A DNA stretch of 64,000 nt from contig NZ_JASBRN010000072.1 in assembly GCF_030149505.1 (NCBI RefSeq), positions 34,482-98,481 of the forward strand, written 5' to 3'. The stretch comes from Nocardioides sp. Its GTDB lineage: Bacteria > Actinomycetota > Actinomycetes > Propionibacteriales > Nocardioidaceae. Made by a program: the position numbers and the translations under genes. This document shows, in pieces, positions 10,503 to 24,286 of this stretch. The number at the start of each line of letters is the position of its first letter. Positions within the stretch are counted from its first letter, which is position 1. Below the pieces are notes generated by a model. It was not told where the DNA came from, ran no database searches, and was given only the letters and a program-made list of their open reading frames with translations.

Positions 10503-13028
10503 ATGGACGACCAGCCCACCCCGCACCAGGTACGCCGGGCACTGGCCCGCGCCGAGCGGGGCGCCCGGCTCGACGAGGCCGAGGCCACGGCGCTGCTCGC
10601 CGCCACCGGCCCCGACCTCGACCGCCTCTGCGCGGCCGCGGCCCGCGTCCGCGACGCCGGCCTGGTCGCGGCCGGTCGCCCCGCGACGGTGACCTACTCC
10701 CCCAAGGTCTTCATCCCCGTGACCCGGCTGTGCCGGGACCGGTGCCACTACTGCACCTTCGTCGAGACCCCCGCGCAGGCCGCCCGGGAGGGCCGCGCCC
10801 CCTACCTCTCCCCCGACGAGATCCTGGCCATCGCCTCCCAGGGCGCGGCCATGGGCTGCCTCGAGGCGCTCTTCACCCTCGGCGACCGGCCCGAGGACCG
10901 CTGGCCCGAGGCGCAGGCCTGGCTCGACGAGCAGGGCTACGACTCCACCCTGGCCTACGTCCGCGCCATGGCGGTGCGGGTGCTGGAGAAGACCGGGCTG
11001 CTGCCGCACCTCAACCCCGGCGTCATGTCGTGGGAGGAGATGAACCGGCTCAAGCCCGTCTCCCCCTCCATGGGGATGATGCTCGAGACCACCTCGCGGC
11101 GGCTCTTCGAGGAGAAGGGGCAGGCTCACTTCGGCTCCCCCGACAAGGACCCCGCGGTGCGGCTGCGGGTGCTCGAGGACGCCGGTCGGCTCTCCATCCC
11201 CTTCACCACCGGGCTGCTCGTCGGCATCGGGGAGACCCTGGCCGAGCGCGCCGAGACGATCTTCGCGCTGCGCGCGACCCTGACCGCCTACGGCGCCGTC
11301 CAGGAGGTCATCGTCCAGAACTTCCGCGCCAAGCCCGACACCGCGATGCGGCACACCGACGACCTCGACCTCGATGAGTACCGCGCCGCGATCGCCGTCA
11401 CCCGACTCGTCCTGGGCCCCCGGGCCCGGGTGCAGGCACCCCCCAACCTGGTCGACCTCGAGGAGTGCCGCACCCTGCTCGAGGCCGGCGTCGACGACTG
11501 GGGCGGGGTGTCGCCGCTGACCCCCGACCACGTCAACCCCGAGCGCCCCTGGCCCTCGCTCGAACGGCTGCGCGCCGTCACCGCCGAGTGCGGCTTCGAG
11601 CTGGCCGCACGGCTCACGGTGCACCCCGAGCAGGTCCGCGCCTCGCTGGCCGGCGACGCCGCCTGGATCGACCCGCGCGTGCGCGGCCACGTCGCGGCGC
11701 TGGCCACGCCCGAGGGGCTCGCGCGCCCCGGCGTACGGCCCGTGGGGCTGCCGTGGCAGGAGCCCGACGGCGGGCTGGAGTCGGCCGGGCGCACCGACCT
11801 CTTCGAGGCGGTCGACACCGAGGGGCGCTCGGCGGACCGGCGCTCGGACTTCGCCGAGGTGTACGGCGACTGGGAGACCGTCGGCGCGGCCGCTGCGCGC
11901 ACGGGTGCTCCCGCGGTGCTGCACAGCGAGGGCCGCGAGGCCCTGGCCGCAGCCGAGGCCGACCCCGGCAACCTGTCCGACGAGCACGCGCTGACCCTCA
12001 TGACCGCCGAGGGACCCCTGCTGGAGCAGGTGTGCCGGCTCGCCGACGACCTGCGTCGCGAGGTCGTCGGCGACGAGGTCACCTACGTCGTCAACCGGAA
12101 CATCAACTTCACCAACGTCTGCTACGTCGGGTGCCGCTTCTGCGCCTTCGCACAGCGCAGGACCGACGCCGACGCCTACTCCCTGTCGGTCGACGAGGTC
12201 GCCGACCGCGCCGCGGAGGCCTGGGACCTGGGCGCGACCGAGGTCTGCATGCAGGGCGGCATCGACCCGGACCTCCCGGCGTCGGCGTACTTCGACCTGG
12301 CCGCGGCGGTGAGGCGGCGGGTGCCCGACATGCACGTGCACGCCTTCTCCCCGATGGAGGTCGTCAACGGCACGGCCCGCACGGGGCTCTCGGTCGAGGA
12401 CTTCCTCATCAAGGCCCGTGAGTCCGGGCTCGGGTCGCTGCCCGGCACGGCCGCGGAGATCCTCGACGACGAGGTGCGCTGGGTGCTGACGAAGGGCAAG
12501 CTGCCGGCGCGCACCTGGATCGACATCGTCTCCACCGCGCACCGGGTCGGGCTGCCGACCACCTCGACGATGATGTTCGGCCACGTCGACAACCCGCGGC
12601 ACTGGGTCGGGCACCTGCGGGTGCTGACGCGGATGCAGGACGCCGCCCTCGAGCACGGCGCCGCCCGGTTCACCGAGTTCGTGCCGTTGCCCTTCGTGCA
12701 CACCTCGGCGCCCATCTACCTCGCCGGTGTCGCCCGTCCCGGTCCGACGCTGCGCGACAACCTCGCGGTGCACGCGATGGCACGCATCCTGCTGCACGGG
12801 CGGATCGACAACATCCAGACGTCGTGGGTCAAGCTCGGCGTGGAGGGCACCCGCGCGATGCTGCGCGCCGGTGCCAACGACCTCGGGGGCACGCTGATGG
12901 AGGAGACCATCTCCCGGATGGCCGGCTCCGAGCACGGCTCGGCCAAGACCGTCGAGGAACTGGTCGAGATCGGTGCCGGCATCGGCCGCCCGGTCCGCGA
13001 GCGCACCACCCTGTACGCCGCCCGCTGA
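10503..13028 (+). CDS. fbiC: Bifunctional FO synthase (CofG+CofH), F420 biosynthesis
   Basis: Two radical-SAM motifs CRDRCHYC and CYVGCRFC; [11 protein letters not shown] and [10 protein letters not shown]; TAGCCT -10 six nt upstream. Confidence 0.97.
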
Positions 13029-18343: not shown

Positions 18344-19237
18344 GTGCGCTTCTCGATCAGCACCGCCTACCTGCCCCTGACCGAGCTCCCGGCCCTCGCG
18401 GTGGCCGCCGACCGGCTGGGGTACGACGCCATGGCCGTCCCCGACCACGTGGTGGACCTGGAGACCCTCCAGACGCCGTACCCTTACACCCGTGACGGCG
18501 CCCGGCGCTGGGACCACGACGCCGCCTGGCCCGATCCCTGGGTGCTCGTCGGGGCGCTCGCGGCCGTGACGACCCGACTGCGCTTCTTCACCTCGGTGTA
18601 CGTGCCGGCGCTGCGCAGTCCCTTCCAGGTCGCGAAGTCCGTCGGGACCGCGGCGGTGCTCTCGGGCAACCGGGTGGCCCTCGGCATCGGGATCGGCTGG
18701 TGCCGCGAGGAGTTCGAGCTGCTGGGGCAGGACTTTTCCACCCGCGGCAAGCGGACCGACGAGGCGCTGGCGCTGATGGAGCAGCTGTGGCAGCCCGGCT
18801 GGACGGAGTTCGAGGGCACCCACTACGCCGCGCCGCGGCTGGTCATGGAGCCGACCCCCACCGCACGCATCCCCGTGTACGTCGGCGGGCTGAGCGAGGT
18901 CGCGATGCGCCGGGCCGCGCGGCACGACGGCTGGGTCGGGGACCTCTACACGGTCGAGGAGGCTGCCGGGCACGCCGCGACGCTGGCCCGGATGCGCGAG
19001 GAGACCGGCAACGAGCGCGACTTCTCCTTCATCACCGCGCTGACCGACGCCTTCCTGCCCGAGCAGTTCGCGGCCGCGGAGGAGCGCGGGGTGACCGACG
19101 TGATGACGATGCCGTGGGCCTACTACCACGGCCTCGACGTGGGCCTGGAGCAGAAGCTCGACGGGATGGAGCGCTTCGCCGCCGACGTGCTGCGCCCGCT
19201 CGGCATCACGCCCGCCGCGACGGTCCCGGAGATGTAG
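18344..19237 (+). CDS. LLM-class probable F420-dependent oxidoreductase
   Basis: MAVPDHVV, WPDPWV, LGIGIGWCREEF, RRAARHDGW. Confidence 0.9.
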   Translation: MRFSISTAYLPLTELPALAVAADRLGYDAMAVPDHVVDLETLQTPYPYTRDGARRWDHDAAWPDPWVLVGALAAVTTRLRFFTSVYVPALRSPFQVAKSVGTAAVLSGNRVALGIGIGWCREEFELLGQDFSTRGKRTDEALALMEQLWQPGWTEFEGTHYAAPRLVMEPTPTARIPVYVGGLSEVAMRRAARHDGWVGDLYTVEEAAGHAATLARMREETGNERDFSFITALTDAFLPEQFAAAEERGVTDVMTMPWAYYHGLDVGLEQKLDGMERFAADVLRPLGITPAATVPEM

Positions 19238-19238
19238 A

Positions 19239-19270
19239 GAACCGCTGGGGTCTCGGGTCCCCAGCGGTTC
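19239..19270 (+). terminator. Hairpin terminator after LLM gene
   Basis: GAACCGCTGGGG / CCCCAGCGGTTC 12-bp stem directly after stop. Confidence 0.65.
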
Positions 19271-19373
19271 GAGGTCAACACTAGGCGCCGGTAGGGCACC
19301 TGTCACCCGAATCCCGCGATCGCCCACCATCCGGGCGAACTGGTCCAGGCCACCGCGGCGCTACATTCGACCG

Positions 19374-19748
19374 GTGAGCACCCCGCACGAGCCCACCCAG
19401 GCCGTCACCGACCCGCAGCCCGACCCCGCCCCGGAGTCGACGGACGGGACCCCCGAGCCGACGACGACCAGTCCGGTGCGCGGCGACGACCCGCTGCGCG
19501 GCTCGCGCACCAGCGGCGTCTGGGTGGCCACCGTCGGCCTGGGGCTGCTGCTCGTGCTCCTCGTGGTCTTCATCGCACAGAACACCGACACGACCACCGT
19601 GCGCTTCCTGGCGCTCGAGGGCGAGGCGCCGGTCGCGGTCGCGCTCCTCATCGCCACCGCCGCGGGCATCCTGCTCACCGCCAGTGCCGGCACGCTGCGG
19701 ATCCTCCAGCTGCGCCGCCGGACCCGCAAGGACCTCAAGCGTCGCTGA
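19374..19748 (+). CDS. LapA/DUF1049-family small membrane protein
   Basis: TM-FIAQNT..TVRFL-TM-LRILQLRR pattern; TACATT six nt upstream. Confidence 0.8.
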   Translation: MSTPHEPTQAVTDPQPDPAPESTDGTPEPTTTSPVRGDDPLRGSRTSGVWVATVGLGLLLVLLVVFIAQNTDTTTVRFLALEGEAPVAVALLIATAAGILLTASAGTLRILQLRRRTRKDLKRR

Positions 19749-19778
19749 GCCGACGCTCGACCCGGCCCCGACGTGGGC

Positions 19779-20294
19779 TCAGCCCAGCGTCAGGTCCACC
19801 ATCAGCTCGTCGGCGATCTGCTCGAGGGCTGCCCGCAGCGTCTCGAGGTCGCCGTCGACCGGCGCGACCAGCTCGGCGGTGACCTCGAAGAGCAGTCCCC
19901 CGGCCATCGGCGCCTCGCGCAGCCCGGTCGCCAGCGACTCGATGCCCACGCCGTGCGCGGCGATCGTGCGGGAGATCTCCGCGACGATGCCGGGGCGGTC
20001 GGTGCCGAGCAGGTGCAGTCCCACGGCGGCCACCTGCTGCTCGGCCGGCTCGTCGGTGCGGCGCACGTCGACCCGCAGGCCGTCCGCCTCGAGCGCAGCC
20101 AGGTCACGCTCGAGCGCCTCGACCTCGCCGGTCGGGACGCTCACGAGCACGATGCCGGCGAACTCACCGGCCAGCCGGGCCATCTGGCTGTGCTGCCAGC
20201 TGCCGCCCCGCGCCTCCACCGGCGCGGAGACGGCCGAGACCAGACCCGGCCGGTCGCGGCCGATGACGGTGAGCACCAGGGTCGCGGATGTCAT
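19779..20294 (-). CDS. GcvR-like tandem ACT-domain protein
   Basis: LVLTVIGRDRPGLV and LHLLGTDRPGIVAEIS ACT repeats; SQMARLAGEFAGI. Confidence 0.88.
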   Translation of the reverse strand: MTSATLVLTVIGRDRPGLVSAVSAPVEARGGSWQHSQMARLAGEFAGIVLVSVPTGEVEALERDLAALEADGLRVDVRRTDEPAEQQVAAVGLHLLGTDRPGIVAEISRTIAAHGVGIESLATGLREAPMAGGLLFEVTAELVAPVDGDLETLRAALEQIADELMVDLTLG

Positions 20295-21289
20295 GGCCCG
20301 GAGCGTACCGACGCGTGCTGGGGTGCCGCCGCCCACGGCATGAGCGGCCGCACGGGAGCCGTCACCGCCCGCGGCAGCAGGTCGATGGCGAGCAGGGCCA
20401 CGAAGCCGGAGATCGTCTTGTCCGCCAAGGAGGTCAGGATGTTGGCCGAGGCGACCGCGAGCCACAAGGACTTCACCGTCTCCTGGATCGCGTCGATCAC
20501 GTCGTCGGCGCCGTTGCCGGTCTCCCCGCCCAGGGCGATGATGATCGGGACCGCGAGGCTCGTGCAGACGAGGGCCGTCAGGCAGTTCAGCGCGAAGAAC
20601 CGCGGCAACGTGCGGCCCATCCGCCACCGTCGTACGCCGTAGCCCCAGACCAGGGCCCCGGCGACGTTGACGATGGCGAACGGGATCGAGCCGCTGCCGG
20701 ACACGGCCACGCCGAGCAGGTTGGTACTCAGGCCGACACCGGCGCCCCACCAAGGCCCCAGGATCACCGCGGCCACGGCCGTGCCGACCATGTCGAGGTA
20801 GAGCGGGATCTCCGGGATCACCACCACCAGGACCCGACCCACCATGTTGACCACGACGCAGCCCAGCGCCACGAGCAGGCCTGCCCGCACCGTCGCGGGC
20901 GGGGGTGGAGTGGCCGGCGTGGTCGGTGGCGCGGAGGTCGGAGGTGGCGGCGTGGTGTCCGAGGGGGCCGGGGCGGCCGGCTCCTCGGCGCGCGGGGGGA
21001 AGGCCTCGGCGAGGCGAGCGGTGCGGCAGCGCTCGTCCCAGTCGGCGACCTCGTCCTCGTCGGCGCCGAGCGCGCGCACGATGTCGAGGACCAGCGCGGC
21101 GTCCAGCCGCCGCCGGCCGGTGCGGAACGCGTCGTACACCGTGGTGCGGGCGGGCCGCGCCGTGGCGTCGGGCCCGCCGCGCGCCTCGCGCAGCCGGGCG
21201 ATCCGCAGGGCGATCTCGGCGTACGACGGGCTTCCGGCATCCGTGCGTCGGACCTGCAGGTCCTCCGCTATCCGGTCGAACGCCGTCAT
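20291..21289 (-). CDS. Fusion of HTH-like N-terminal domain and ECF-transporter S-component-like domain
   Basis: N-term AGSPSYAEIA...ARTTVYDAFRTGRRR; Pro-rich linker; C-term LYLDMVGTAVAAVILGPWWGAGVG...FAIVNVAGALVWG...DKTIS. Confidence 0.7.
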   Translation of the reverse strand: MTAFDRIAEDLQVRRTDAGSPSYAEIALRIARLREARGGPDATARPARTTVYDAFRTGRRRLDAALVLDIVRALGADEDEVADWDERCRTARLAEAFPPRAEEPAAPAPSDTTPPPPTSAPPTTPATPPPPATVRAGLLVALGCVVVNMVGRVLVVVIPEIPLYLDMVGTAVAAVILGPWWGAGVGLSTNLLGVAVSGSGSIPFAIVNVAGALVWGYGVRRWRMGRTLPRFFALNCLTALVCTSLAVPIIIALGGETGNGADDVIDAIQETVKSLWLAVASANILTSLADKTISGFVALLAIDLLPRAVTAPVRPLMPWAAAPQHASVRSGP

Positions 21290-21460
21290 GCCCCCATCAC
21301 GCCGAGCAGCCTAGTCGTGGCAGCCCAGTGACACCTCCCCTTCACCTCAACACGTGCCCTGGTCCCCGACGACCGCAGCGGGGGCCGGTGCGGGACCGCC
21401 GACCCGCGGCCCCCGTCGTCGCGGGGGCCACGGGTCGGCGGCGGGGATCGGCGGCGGGGG

Positions 21461-22474
21461 TCAGCGCAGGGTCACCTTACGGGGCGCCGAGGCGGACCCG
21501 GCGACCTGCGCGGAGCCGGCGTACGTCGCCACCAGCACGTGCTTGCCCGCGCGCAGCCTCGGCAGCCGCACGGTGGCGACGCCGTCCTGCACGGTGCCGC
21601 GGGCGATCTGCCGGCCCTTATCGGTGACGACGACCTCGCCGGACGCGGGCCGGTCGCTCGCGACGGTGATCCGGGCCGTGCCCTTGCGTCGGGTGGAGAC
21701 GGTGAAGTCGGCCCGGGTGGTGGAGTCGACCTGGTCACCGGGCTGGTCCTGGCCGCCGCCGGCGAAGAGCCCGACGTACGGCGTGACGTACTGCTTGTCG
21801 CCGCCGTGGCCACCGACGGTGAAGGCGATCTGCAGGTGGTCGCCGGCCTGCGAGACCGGGCACGGCGCCGTGCCCTCGCGGCGCGACTGGCACTCGGGCT
21901 GCTGGGTGGCGGGCCCCTTCAGCACGCGGGTGGCGCGCACCGGGAACTGCAGCTCCAGGATGTCGCCCTGGCGCAGCGTGAAGGGGGTGAAGTCGGCGTT
22001 GCCCACCAGGATGCCGCCGTTCTGGCCGTGGTCGAAGGCGAGCGGCTCGGTCCCGAGGTCCTGCTGCTCGCCGGCCTCGGTCAGGTCCCAGCGCACGTCC
22101 TCGTCGACGAACTCGATGCCGCTCGGCACGAGGATCTCGGGCAGCACGGCGACCTTGCCGCTGCAGGGCATCCCGACCAGGCCGATGTAGCCCCGCAGGT
22201 AGAACTTCTCGCCCACCTCGGGCACCTGGCCGTCGGGCGACCTCCAGCTGACGTTGGCGCTGACGCCGGTCGCGGGGCTGCCGGTGATGCAGGAGACGAG
22301 GGTGTCCTCGTCGTGCAGCCCGTCCTGCCACTCCGCGGTGGCGGCGGCGGCGGGGGCCAGACCGCCCCCGACCAGCGTCGCGGCAGCCAGGGAGGTGGCC
22401 AGCGAGGTGACCAGGGTGGCGCCGAGCGCTCGACGTCGGAGGGGTCGGGGGGCGGTGGTGCTGGGGGCGGACAT
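21461..22474 (-). CDS. Secreted protein with C-terminal bacterial Ig-like domain
   Basis: Signal peptide, Cys-containing unknown N domain, C-term ASGEVVV...GVATVRLPRLRAGKHVLVATYAGS; AGGAAGGA SD. Confidence 0.8.
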   Translation of the reverse strand: MSAPSTTAPRPLRRRALGATLVTSLATSLAAATLVGGGLAPAAAATAEWQDGLHDEDTLVSCITGSPATGVSANVSWRSPDGQVPEVGEKFYLRGYIGLVGMPCSGKVAVLPEILVPSGIEFVDEDVRWDLTEAGEQQDLGTEPLAFDHGQNGGILVGNADFTPFTLRQGDILELQFPVRATRVLKGPATQQPECQSRREGTAPCPVSQAGDHLQIAFTVGGHGGDKQYVTPYVGLFAGGGQDQPGDQVDSTTRADFTVSTRRKGTARITVASDRPASGEVVVTDKGRQIARGTVQDGVATVRLPRLRAGKHVLVATYAGSAQVAGSASAPRKVTLR

Positions 22475-22606
22475 GGTGGTCCTTCCTGTGGGGGGTCGGT
22501 TCGGTGGACCGACCCTCGCGGTCCCCGCGTCCCGGCCCCCAGGGGCTGCAGCACCCCTCGTGTCCCCCCGTTGTCCCGGCTCCCCGGGACACGGCTCAGC
22601 CCCGGG

Positions 22607-24190
22607 TCACTCCCACTCGATGGTGCCCGGCGGCTTGCTGGTGACGTCGAGGGTGACCCGGTTGACCTCGGGCACCTCGTTGGTGATCCGGGTGGAGATC
22701 CGCTCCAGCACCTCGAAGGGCAGCCGGGCCCAGTCGGCGGTCATGGCGTCCTCGGAGGTGACCGGGCGCAGGACGACCGGGTGGCCGTAGGTGCGACCGT
22801 CGCCCTGGACGCCGACGGACCGGACGTCGGCGAGCAGCACGACCGGCATCTGCCAGATGTCACGGTCCAGGCCGGCGCGGGTCATCTCCTCGCGGGCGAT
22901 GGCGTCGGCCTCGCGCAGGACGTCGAGCCGTTCGCGGGTGACCTCGCCGATGATCCGGATCCCCAGGCCGGGTCCGGGGAACGGGTGGCGCCACACGATC
23001 TCGGGCGGCAGCCCGAGCTGCTCGCCCACCAGCCGCACCTCGTCCTTGAACAGGGTGCGCAGGGGCTCGACGAGCTCGAACTCCAGATCCTCGGGCAGTC
23101 CGCCGACGTTGTGGTGGCTCTTGATCGTCGAGGCGCCCGCTCCTCCGCCGGACTCCACGACGTCCGGATAGAGGGTGCCCTGCACCAGGAAGGCGACCTT
23201 GTCACCGTCGTCGCCGCTGACGGCGTCGGCGAGGATCTCCCGCTCGGCGGCCTCGAAGGTGCGGATGAACTCGCGGCCGATGATCTTGCGCTTCTCCTCG
23301 GGGTCGCTGACCCCGGCGAGCGCGTCGAGGAACTGCTTCTCGGCGTCCACGACCCGCAGGTCGACGCCGGTCGCGGCCACGAAGTCCCGCTCGACCTGCT
23401 CGGTCTCGCCCTTGCGCATCAGGCCGTGGTCGACGTAGACGCAGGTGAGCCGGTCACCGATCGCGCGCTGCACGATCGCCGCCGCCACCGCGGAGTCCAC
23501 GCCGCCGGACAGCCCGCAGATGGCCTGGCCACGGTCGCCGATCTGGCTACGGATCTTCTCGATCTGCTCCTCGACGATGTTGACCATCGTCCACGTCGGG
23601 CGGCAGCCGGCGATGTCCCACAGGAAGTGCTCGAGCACCTTCTGGCCGTGCTCGGAGTGCAGGACCTCCGGGTGCCACTGCACCCCGGCCAGGCCGCGGC
23701 CGACGTCCTCGAAGGCCGCCACCGGGGTGACGTCGGTGGAGGCCAGCACGGTGAAACCGGCCGGGGCGGCCGAGACGGAGTCGCCGTGCGACATCCACAC
23801 CCTGTGCTCGGCGGGTACGTCGGCGAGCAGCGTGCCCGGCTCGGTGACCCGGACCGGGGTGCGGCCGTACTCCCGCGCGCCGGTCGCCGCCACGGTGCCG
23901 CCCAGGCCGCGGGCCATCAGCTGGAAGCCGTAGCACATCCCGAAGACCGGGGTCCCCGAGGTGAAGATCGCCTCGTCGATGCCGGGCGCGTCCTCGGCGT
24001 ACACCGAGGAGGGCCCGCCGGAGAGGATGATCGCCTTCGGGCCACGGGCCAGCATCTCCGCGACCGGCATGTGGTGCGGCACGATCTCGGAGTAGACCCG
24101 CGCCTCGCGGACGCGCCGGGCGATCAGCTGCGCGTACTGCGCCCCGAAGTCGACGACGAGGACCAGGTCGTGCTCAGGGGCATCCGTCAT
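22607..24190 (-). CDS. guaA: GMP synthase (glutamine-hydrolyzing)
   Basis: [53 protein letters not shown]. Confidence 0.98.
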
Positions 24191-24286
24191 GGGCCGCATC
24201 GTATCGGCGGGCGGCGTCCCGCTCCCCCGCCAGGTCGGCGTCTGGGCACCAGCCGGCACGGGCCGGAGGGACAGCCGTAAATGCAC

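What the first reader, a model, noticed from the sequence alone, without database searches (positions are those of the whole stretch)
19779..21289. HTH + ECF S-component fusion translationally coupled to a tandem-ACT protein: possible membrane nutrient-sensing regulator
The 332-aa protein joins an actinobacterial HTH-like domain (AGSPSYAEIA...ARTTVYDAF), a Pro-rich linker and a multi-TM domain resembling ECF S components. S components normally bind micronutrients and need T and A modules, and none is in the window. Its TGA overlaps the ATG of a GcvR-like double-ACT gene (ATGA, 20291-94), although TACGCT 7 nt upstream of the ACT gene hints at a separate promoter too. Hypothesis: the S domain is repurposed as an extracellular ligand sensor driving transcription, and the ACT protein reports intracellular amino acids.
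Basis: partly seen in the sequence, partly recalled or inferred. Interest (0 to 1): 0.65.

Follow-up and report, generated by a model that had tools for sequence, protein, structure and literature searches.

The report
Membrane-anchored regulator with vitamin-transporter-like sensor
This gene joins a DNA-binding domain to a membrane domain that has the fold of a vitamin-importer binding subunit; hundreds of actinobacterial species carry the fusion as a lone gene beside its own likely DNA target, so it is probably an undescribed membrane-bound gene switch and not a plain transporter part.

Summary
Window 20291-21289(-) encodes a 332-aa protein made of an XRE-type HTH (residues 1-97), a Pro-rich linker, and a membrane domain with the ECF S-component fold. 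Its TGA overlaps the ATG of a 171-aa tandem-ACT gene (19779-20294).

The fusion is a widespread, unstudied actinobacterial family, with at least 216 species hits. It is always a stand-alone gene: no EcfT lies within 10 kb in any of 80 loci.

The new evidence for DNA binding is a cis element of tandem 10-bp units (TTCCCGAACAACCCCGAACA) that travels with the gene.
- It lies upstream in 36 of 80 loci and just downstream in about 19 more.
- In three of five other genomes a strict form of the motif occurs nowhere else.
- It also precedes 5 of 9 NB-ARC/TPR genes, which share only the HTH domain with this protein.

The window's own promoter lacks the element. Its genome has four strong sites elsewhere: before a Tad-type secretion ATPase, before a vWA protein, and before an unknown gene.

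The ACT partnership is lineage-specific. The pair is adjacent only in the window and two close relatives, and ACT orthologues elsewhere live alone.

Best reading: a membrane-tethered one-component regulator (BcrR-like logic) whose sensor is an S-component fold. A dual transporter-regulator role cannot be excluded. This scan had not found the fusion on other DNA.

The parts
20291..21289 (-). CDS of the 332-aa HTH/S-component fusion protein (P0001)
   Evidence: ORF and translation. 516 homologues at E<=1e-3. 216 species hits in GTDB genomes.
20999..21289 (-). N-terminal XRE-type HTH domain, residues 1-97. The presumed recognition helix is ARTTVYDAFRTGRRR, residues 47-61.
   Evidence: HTH_31 in 22 of 29 members. 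The AF2 model with Foldseek gives XRE folds. R48, T50, V51, D53, F55, G58 and R59 are invariant. The same domain heads NB-ARC/TPR proteins.
20891..20998 (-). Pro/Ala/Thr-rich linker, residues 98-133, variable in length and low in model confidence
   Evidence: Alignment A1 shows it is unconserved and of variable length. pLDDT is 50-72.
20360..20890 (-). Membrane domain with the ECF S-component fold, residues 134-310. Conserved motifs: PLYLDMVGTA, GPWWG, NVAGALVWGYG, N..TS..DK.ISG.
   Evidence: NF045596 E 4.5e-25; PF12822 E 4e-6; weak PF07694 5TMR-LYT E 0.002. FolT by profile. Foldseek top 16 hits are S components. 30% identity to an S-only CD3073-like protein.
19779..20294 (-). CDS of the 171-aa tandem-ACT protein (P0002). 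Its ATG overlaps the TGA of the fusion gene.
   Evidence: ACT_6 E 1.6e-22 plus ACT E 6.6e-9. GcvR model only 44 bits against a cut-off of 267.
20291..20294 (-). ATGA stop/start overlap (translational coupling)
   Evidence: Read directly. Conserved in L007 and L008.
21308..21313 (-). TAGGCT, a candidate -10 hexamer 18 nt before the ATG of the fusion gene
   Evidence: Sequence. The same box at the same place in L007. The consensus sigma-70 scan found nothing, so this is an inference.
21408..21429 (-). G+C-rich hairpin (8-bp stem) after the upstream Ig-like gene. It probably separates that gene from the fusion gene's transcription unit.
   Evidence: Inverted repeat GGCCCCCG-N6-CGGGGGCC. The palindrome was also picked up as spurious Rfam matches on both strands.
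20302..20307 (-).
   Evidence: Present and conserved in L007 and L008, but it lies in the conserved Val-Arg-Ser codons. Unresolved.

Best explanation
The 332-aa protein is a membrane-tethered one-component transcription regulator.

Anatomy:
- A cytoplasmic XRE-type HTH sits on a flexible Pro-rich tether.
- The tether joins it to a polytopic membrane domain with the ECF S-component fold (in solved ECF complexes the N terminus of S is cytoplasmic).

Proposed mechanism:
- The HTH binds arrays of two to four head-to-tail 10-bp units (consensus TTCCCGAACAACCCCGAACA). In most species these lie beside the regulator's own gene.
- The S-like domain binds a small molecule in the membrane, possibly a nucleoside-like compound, and thereby changes how the HTH occupies these sites.

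In this genome the gene's own promoter has lost the array. Strong arrays lie instead before a Tad-type secretion ATPase gene, before a vWA-protein gene, and before an unknown gene. These are candidate targets.

The downstream tandem-ACT gene is co-translated with the regulator here, but it is a recent neighbour and not a family-wide partner.

Shown here: domain identities, family distribution, absence of ecfT linkage, and the association of the cis element with the HTH domain. Inferred: DNA binding by this HTH, ligand sensing, the direction of regulation, and the ligand class.
For: Domains.

Stand-alone gene:
- No neighbour cluster is shared by more than 13 of 80 loci.
- tblastn with four EcfT proteins finds nothing at E<=1e-3 within 10 kb in any of 80 loci.
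- One carrier genome (Ornithinimicrobium panacihumi) has no detectable ecfT at all.

Cis element:
- CGRAC-N5-CGRAC occurs 105 times in 1.44 Mb of loci. 43 of these lie in the 300 nt before the gene, where 1.75 are expected.
- A PWM site of 21 bits or more lies upstream in 36 of 80 loci. About 19 further loci, not used to build the PWM, have one just after the stop codon.
- The strict 15-mer occurs 1-3 times per genome in five genomes, always including the site at this gene, with 0 control hits. The extra hits score below 14 PWM bits.
- The same array precedes 5 of 9 HTH-NB-ARC-TPR genes, which share only the N-domain. It is also present in 5 of 15 S-type loci that were not in the training set.

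Recognition helix and candidate targets:
- The presumed recognition helix is invariant across genera.
- This genome encodes only one protein with this HTH.
- It has four sites of 24.6-33.6 bits, against a control maximum of 20.7.
- The site before the cpaF-like gene recurs in a relative's genome.

Other: no riboswitch lies upstream. Charged loops fit an N-in/C-in topology (read from the sequence).
Against: - No experiment of any kind supports this reading.
- The window's own promoter has no array, so autoregulation cannot be claimed for this copy.
- Only about 55 of 80 loci have a recognisable site nearby.
- XRE proteins usually bind inverted repeats, not direct ones.
- The HTH_31 match of this protein is below threshold, and the Foldseek E values for the small domain are weak (0.2 or worse).
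- ecfT exists in 9 of 10 carrier genomes, and S-only relatives work in true ECF operons. Docking to an ECF module, and hence transport, remains possible.
- The PWM was trained on the upstream sites, so the upstream count is partly circular. The downstream, STAND and own-genome hits are not.
Confidence: 0.58

Rival explanations
1. Dual-function 'trigger transporter'. The protein is a working S component that docks onto an EcfAA'T module encoded elsewhere and imports a substrate. Its HTH couples transport status to transcription, including of its own gene.
For: ecfT is found in 9 of 10 carrier genomes, with two in this genome. The closest S-only relatives, which give the same NF045596 score range, sit in ECF operons next to EcfT, an ECF ATPase and RihA-like nucleoside hydrolases. 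The S fold is fully preserved.
Against: The gene is never linked to ecfT (0 of 80). Both ecfT genes of this genome already have their own adjacent S gene. One carrier genome has no ecfT. HMM scores are below family cut-offs. No conserved A-x3-A motif is evident in TM1 (judged by eye only).
Confidence: 0.25
2. The fusion and the tandem-ACT protein form a two-part sensor: the S domain reads an outside ligand, the ACT protein reads cytoplasmic amino acids, and both act on the HTH.
For: The ATGA overlap is conserved in the window, L007 and L008. This implies co-expression in this clade.
Against: The ACT gene is adjacent in only 2 of 80 loci and 2 of 121 genomes of the genus. ACT orthologues sit elsewhere in five genomes that also carry the fusion, and occur in about 30 that lack it. 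Their neighbourhoods are unrelated to each other. The apparent S-ACT fusion P0044 is a frameshifted gene call.
Confidence: 0.1
3. The N-domain is not a DNA-binding module here. It acts as a protein-interaction or regulatory cap on a solitary S-type transporter or channel, and another factor binds the nearby repeats.
For: The HTH_31 match is weak for this protein. The window copy has no array nearby. Solitary S components such as BioY can transport alone (established knowledge, not tested here).
Against: No conserved neighbour could encode another binder. The array follows the N-domain into a different architecture. The array is nearly unique in whole genomes.
Confidence: 0.07

Closest known systems
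BcrR of Enterococcus faecalis, and transmembrane transcription regulators in general (ToxR, CadC; census in PMC10269533)
   Same: One polypeptide with an N-terminal XRE-type HTH in the cytoplasm and a C-terminal polytopic membrane domain that is thought to bind the signal directly. No kinase or partner is needed. BcrR is listed as a transmembrane regulator in PMC10269533; its HTH type and four TM helices are from my own knowledge.
   Different: BcrR has four TM helices with no transporter fold and senses bacitracin. Here the membrane part is a complete S-component fold on a long Pro-rich tether, and the predicted operator is a head-to-tail repeat array. No sequence relationship was tested or claimed.
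ECF transporter S components of the CD3073-like / folate (FolT) group (NF045596, TIGR04518, PF12822; PDB 5d0y, 5d3m)
   Same: Same fold (Foldseek probability 1.0). Shared motifs PLYLD.(V/I)GT, GPWWG and DK.IS. 30% identity to an actinobacterial S-only member.
   Different: An added HTH and linker. Scores are below the curated cut-offs (88 against 180 bits; 27.4 against 30.7). It is never clustered with ecfT or ecfA, whereas S-only relatives are.
N-terminal HTH modules of actinobacterial NB-ARC/TPR STAND proteins
   Same: Homologous N-domain (E down to 1e-35; alignment). The same tandem CGAAC array lies upstream in 5 of 9 cases.
   Different: The C-terminal signal-processing part is a soluble NTPase with TPR repeats instead of a membrane domain.
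5TMR-LYT sensor domain of LytS/BtsS-type histidine kinases (PF07694)
   Same: A membrane domain used as a sensor, with a weak profile match to residues 133-251 (E 0.002, 18 bits, below cut-off). From memory, Pfam places it in the same clan as S-component families. That would be a precedent for this fold class in sensing.
   Different: The output there is a histidine kinase, not a fused HTH. The similarity is below threshold, and the clan membership was not checked here.
GcvR (glycine cleavage repressor), for the ACT neighbour
   Same: Two tandem ACT domains in a protein of about 170-190 aa.
   Different: Not an orthologue: 44 bits against a cut-off of 267. No gcv genes are nearby.

Membership tests
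ECF transporter S component (PF12822 / NF045596 CD3073 family) | Six-helix S-component fold | tested here: met
   AF2 pLDDT 87. The top 16 Foldseek PDB hits are ThiT, FolT, RibU and BioY, probability 0.99-1.0.
ECF transporter S component (PF12822 / NF045596 CD3073 family) | Score above the curated family cut-off | tested here: not met
   PF12822: 27.4 bits against 30.7. NF045596: 88.3 against 180.
ECF transporter S component (PF12822 / NF045596 CD3073 family) | Works with an EcfT/EcfAA' module (genomic linkage or a shared module in the genome) | tested here: inconclusive
   No EcfT within 10 kb in 0 of 80 loci. ecfT is present somewhere in 9 of 10 carrier genomes and absent from one.
ECF transporter S component (PF12822 / NF045596 CD3073 family) | High-affinity substrate binding and transport | not testable with these tools
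   Needs binding and uptake assays.
XRE / Cro-C1 type HTH (PF13560 HTH_31) | Profile match | tested here: inconclusive
   The window protein scores E 0.05-0.66 (10.8-14.3 bits against 27). 22 of 29 family members match, best E 1.6e-5.
XRE / Cro-C1 type HTH (PF13560 HTH_31) | Five-helix XRE fold | tested here: met
   Domain model pLDDT 87. The best Foldseek hits are ClgR, M. smegmatis XRE, C.Esp1396I and HipB, probability 0.9-0.99, TM-score 0.6-0.7 on the target, E 0.2 or worse.
XRE / Cro-C1 type HTH (PF13560 HTH_31) | Sequence-specific DNA binding | not testable with these tools
   Indirect support only: a conserved repeat array travels with the domain.
Transmembrane transcription regulators (one-component, e.g. 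BcrR, ToxR, CadC) | A DNA-binding domain and transmembrane segment(s) in one polypeptide | tested here: met
   The HTH (residues 1-97) and a membrane domain of about six helices (residues 134-310) lie in one ORF that is conserved in full length.
Transmembrane transcription regulators (one-component, e.g. BcrR, ToxR, CadC) | Regulates transcription while membrane-bound, in response to a signal | not testable with these tools
   Needs reporter, ChIP and fractionation experiments.
GcvR (NF008612), for the ACT neighbour | Equivalog-level score | tested here: not met
   44.1 bits against a cut-off of 267.

The most novel reading that the evidence does not exclude
An importer's substrate-binding subunit has been converted into the ligand sensor of a membrane-tethered transcription factor. 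This factor no longer needs an ECF module. It reads a membrane-accessible small molecule, perhaps a nucleoside. It switches genes through head-to-tail CGAAC arrays placed next to its own gene, where a membrane-bound protein can reach them. In this genome it has been rewired to control cell-surface loci: a Tad-type secretion ATPase and a vWA/adhesin-like gene pair. The same HTH-plus-array module was independently joined to NB-ARC/TPR NTPases, so it would be a portable output device for different sensors.
Probability: 0.35. Interest if true: 0.75.

Novelty: new variant of a known kind. Interest (0 to 1): 0.62.

Why it matters
Membrane-bound one-component regulators are a recognised but thinly studied class, and few have a defined sensing domain. 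Here the sensor is a fold whose ligand chemistry is well understood from ECF transporters, so the ligand question becomes tractable.

The predicted operator gives an immediate, cheap test (EMSA, reporter). The family is annotated everywhere as "ECF transporter S component" or "hypothetical", which would mislead metabolic reconstructions of vitamin or nucleoside uptake in Nocardioides, Arthrobacter, Microbacterium and relatives.

The shared HTH-plus-array module also offers a handle on the many unstudied HTH-NB-ARC-TPR proteins of actinomycetes.

Tried and rejected
- ACT as a conserved partner: rejected.
- P0044 as a natural S-ACT fusion: rejected. It is a frameshifted call from the same Red Sea MAG as L008.
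- The 198-211-aa "S-only" close homologues (P0059, P0099, P0102): their sequences begin inside the linker or TM1 of the full-length protein, so they are probably truncated gene calls. Not checked on their contigs.
- A riboswitch upstream: none found.
- Consensus promoter and terminator scan: nothing found.
- Palindromic operator search upstream: only scattered G+C hairpins, nothing shared between loci.
- The array in the window: none with up to 3 mismatches or at 14 PWM bits or more.
- The extra strict-pattern hits in the Arthrobacter and Paeniglutamicibacter genomes as further targets: rejected, because they score below 14 PWM bits.
- guaA linkage: seen in only 9 of 80 loci, and explained by local synteny within Nocardioides.
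- Literature searches for HTH/S-component fusions, CD3073, and ECF plus nucleoside hydrolase: no relevant papers found.
- Membrane topology: no predictor was available, so it rests on charge distribution and on known S-component structures.
Full report
**1. What is in the sequence**

On the minus strand, an ORF runs from the ATG at 21289 to the TGA at 20291 and encodes 332 aa. The open frame extends only 7 codons above the ATG, so the start is well defined. The last four bases, ATGA (20294-20291), contain the start of a second ORF that ends at 19779 and encodes 171 aa.

The surrounding genes are as follows.
- Upstream on the same strand: guaA (22607-24286) and a secreted Ig-like protein (21461-22474, Big_3_5).
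- Between the Ig-like gene and the fusion gene: a G+C-rich hairpin (21408-21429).
- Before the fusion gene: a TAGGCT box 18 nt ahead of the ATG (21308-21313).
- Downstream and convergent: a LapA-domain membrane protein (19374-19748).

No riboswitch or other Rfam family lies in 19000-22700. The simple promoter and terminator scan finds nothing.

**2. The two domains**

*C-terminal part, residues about 134-310.*
- It matches NCBIfam "CD3073 family putative ECF transporter S component" at E 4.5e-25, Pfam ECF_trnsprt at E 4e-6, and the folate and ThiW S families more weakly. All are below the curated cut-offs.
- A profile of 27 family members hits the folate S component FolT (5d0y, 5d3m) at E 8e-4 to 3e-3, sharing the GPWWG motif.
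- The AlphaFold model (pLDDT 86.8) retrieves ThiT, FolT, RibU and BioY as its 16 best PDB matches, probability 0.99-1.0.

*N-terminal part, residues 1-97.*
- It is highly conserved. R48, T50, V51, D53, F55, G58 and R59 are invariant.
- It matches HTH_31 in 22 of 29 members, best E 1.6e-5. The window protein itself scores only E 0.05.
- Modelled alone (pLDDT 87), its best PDB matches are XRE-family repressors: ClgR, an M. smegmatis XRE protein, C.Esp1396I and HipB, probability 0.9-0.99.

*Linker and topology.* Between the domains lies a Pro/Ala/Thr-rich stretch of low confidence and variable length. Arg-rich segments (220-231 and the C-tail) alternate with acidic loops (158-167, 253-262). This pattern fits the N-in/C-in topology known for S components and would put the HTH in the cytoplasm. 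That is an inference from the sequence plus established structures.

**3. The family and its neighbourhood**

The fusion is common. There are 516 protein clusters at E<=1e-3, annotated "ECF transporter S component" or "hypothetical". At least 216 GTDB species carry it, in Nocardioides, Aeromicrobium, Janibacter, Ornithinimicrobium, Arthrobacter, Paeniglutamicibacter, Brevibacterium, Microbacterium, Leucobacter, Salinibacterium and others. Within the window's own genus it is patchy: 23 of 121 genomes.

In 80 loci with up to 10 kb on each side:
- No neighbour family is shared by more than 13 loci.
- tblastn with four EcfT proteins finds nothing at E<=1e-3.

ecfT does exist somewhere in 9 of 10 carrier genomes tested, and none was found in Ornithinimicrobium panacihumi. 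This genome has two ecfT genes on other contigs, each beside its own S gene.

S-only proteins of the same subfamily have similar NF045596 scores and are 30% identical to the window's membrane domain. They do sit in real ECF operons:
- RihA-like nucleoside hydrolase, S, EcfT, in two genomes.
- S followed by an ECF ATPase, in a third.

That gives a weak lead to a nucleoside-like ligand. It agrees with earlier notes of this scan on ECF importers in nucleoside-salvage islands that share short words with this protein.

**4. The ACT neighbour**

The 171-aa protein has two ACT domains (ACT_6 at E 1.6e-22, ACT at E 6.6e-9). It is not a GcvR orthologue: 44 bits against a cut-off of 267.

It is adjacent to the fusion gene only in the two closest relatives, L007 and L008 (85% and 68% protein identity). 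Both keep the ATGA overlap.

In 121 genomes of the genus:
- About 38 carry an orthologue at 49% identity or more, most of them without the fusion gene.
- In five genomes that have both, the two genes lie far apart.
- Adjacency occurs only in this genome and in G361, the L008 organism.

Elsewhere the orthologue has unrelated neighbours that are not conserved. The 471-aa "S-ACT fusion" P0044 is a frameshifted call from that same MAG.

So the coupling is real here but recent. It does not define the system.

The TACGCT 7 nt before the ACT start is conserved, but it lies within the conserved Val-Arg-Ser codons of the upstream protein. A separate promoter can be neither supported nor excluded.

**5. 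A cis element that follows the HTH**

Upstream regions of the orthologues share an array of two to four head-to-tail 10-bp units, consensus TTCCCGAACAACCCCGAACA, about 80-150 nt before the start codon.

*Enrichment in the loci.*
- CGRAC-N5-CGRAC occurs 105 times in the 1.44 Mb of fetched loci. 43 of these are in the 300 nt before the gene, where 1.75 are expected.
- I built a 22-nt weight matrix from 38 upstream sites. With it, 36 of 80 loci have a site of 21 bits or more upstream.
- About 19 loci that contributed nothing to the matrix have a 22-32-bit site right after the stop codon. These sites precede varied co-directional genes: an FAH-family gene followed by gltX, a 244-aa secreted protein, and membrane proteins.

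*Near-uniqueness in whole genomes.* I searched the strict 15-mer in five whole genomes: Arthrobacter sp. C2, two Paeniglutamicibacter, a Propionibacteriaceae MAG and N. psychrotolerans.
- It occurs one to three times per genome.
- The hits always include the site at this gene.
- The reversed control gives none.
- The few extra hits do not reach 14 bits on the matrix.

*Association with the HTH alone.*
- The N-domain also heads NB-ARC/TPR STAND proteins of about 800-1000 aa.
- Library-wide, 795 clusters carry this N-domain. Their lengths fall at either about 300-400 aa or about 780-875 aa.
- 5 of 9 such STAND genes examined carry the same array upstream.
- 5 of 15 S-type loci outside the training set also carry it.

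No conserved neighbour could encode another binder. The simplest reading is therefore that this HTH binds the array, and that the array is normally kept beside the regulator's gene. That placement would suit a protein that cannot leave the membrane. This last point is inference.

**6. This genome is an exception, with candidate targets**

The window has no such site. The closest relative, L007, has only a decayed one. L008 has three perfect units on the opposite strand at -93 to -64.

The window protein keeps the family's invariant recognition helix and is the only protein with this HTH in the genome.

A whole-genome scan gives four sites of 24.6-33.6 bits, against a control maximum of 20.7.

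| Site | Position relative to genes |
|---|---|
| C43:6130 | about 120 nt before a T2SSE (CpaF/TadA-like) ATPase gene |
| C66:51771 and C66:51804 | between a surface protein with CarboxypepD_reg/SdrD-B domains and a vWA protein |
| C35:8628 | before an unknown 213-aa gene |

The site before the ATPase gene recurs in the L008 genome (30.2 bits) but not in the L007 genome. These are leads, not established targets.

**7. Comparison with what is known**

Functionally the closest analogues are transmembrane one-component regulators such as BcrR, which is listed in the census PMC10269533.

Structurally the membrane part is an S component, but it fails the curated family thresholds and shows no genomic ecfT linkage. 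I therefore do not file it as a working S component.

A weak, below-threshold match to the 5TMR-LYT sensor domain of LytS-type kinases hints at a precedent for related folds acting as sensors. The clan relationship behind that hint is from memory only.

I found no paper on an HTH/S-component fusion, and the scan had not noted it on other DNA.

**8. Verdict**

- Observation: confirmed.
The regulator idea is strengthened; the ACT partnership is not a family trait.
- Best explanation: a membrane-tethered regulator with an S-fold sensor (confidence about 0.58).
- Main rival: a dual transporter-regulator that uses an ECF module encoded elsewhere (about 0.25).
- Novelty: a new variant of a known kind.

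Noticed in passing
G000 contigs C43:6130-6151, C66:51771-51825 and C35:8628-8649 (outside the window; loci L094, L092, L091): Four strong matches (24.6-33.6 bits, control maximum 20.7) to the tandem CGAAC array. They lie before a CpaF/TadA-like ATPase gene, between a surface-protein gene and a vWA gene, and before an unknown 213-aa gene. They are candidate targets of the window's regulator.
   Followed up: partly
L094:1655-1667 (G000 C43), with matching positions in L137 and L138: A conserved TTATCCACAGATT box, which includes a perfect E. coli-type DnaA-box 9-mer. It lies between the CGAAC array and the promoter of the CpaF-like gene in three related genomes.
   Followed up: no
L089, L090, L123, L124, L132 (other actinomycete genomes): NB-ARC/TPR STAND proteins of 800-1000 aa start with the same HTH domain and carry the same tandem CGAAC array upstream. 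The HTH plus array looks like a portable module.
   Followed up: partly
L015, L022, L024, L042, L050 (about 840-1800 nt after the start of the fusion gene): In several Nocardioides loci the array sits after the fusion gene's stop codon, in front of an FAH-family gene followed by gltX or in front of a 244-aa secreted protein. L042 has two arrays.
   Followed up: partly
window 21461-22474 (-): A secreted Ig-like (Big_3_5) protein gene lies between guaA and the fusion gene. It has no tblastn match in any of the 80 related loci. In the closest relative, L007, guaA directly precedes the fusion gene, so this looks like a recent insertion that replaced the old upstream region.
   Followed up: partly
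window 22586-22668 (-): A weak, below-threshold Rfam match to ASdes sRNA (23 bits against 40, E 0.044) at the 3' end of guaA and just after it.
   Followed up: no
L100 and L101 (genomes G003, G243): CD3073-like S-only components sit in operons of RihA-like nucleoside hydrolase, S, EcfT, with an aldo-keto reductase next door in G003. This looks like an uncharacterised nucleoside-linked ECF importer.
   Followed up: partly
P0044 / L008 about 10700-11000: The Red Sea Nocardioides MAG has a frameshift in the last helix of the fusion gene, and public gene calls merge the gene with the ACT gene. Close homologues of 198-211 aa look like truncated calls.
   Followed up: partly
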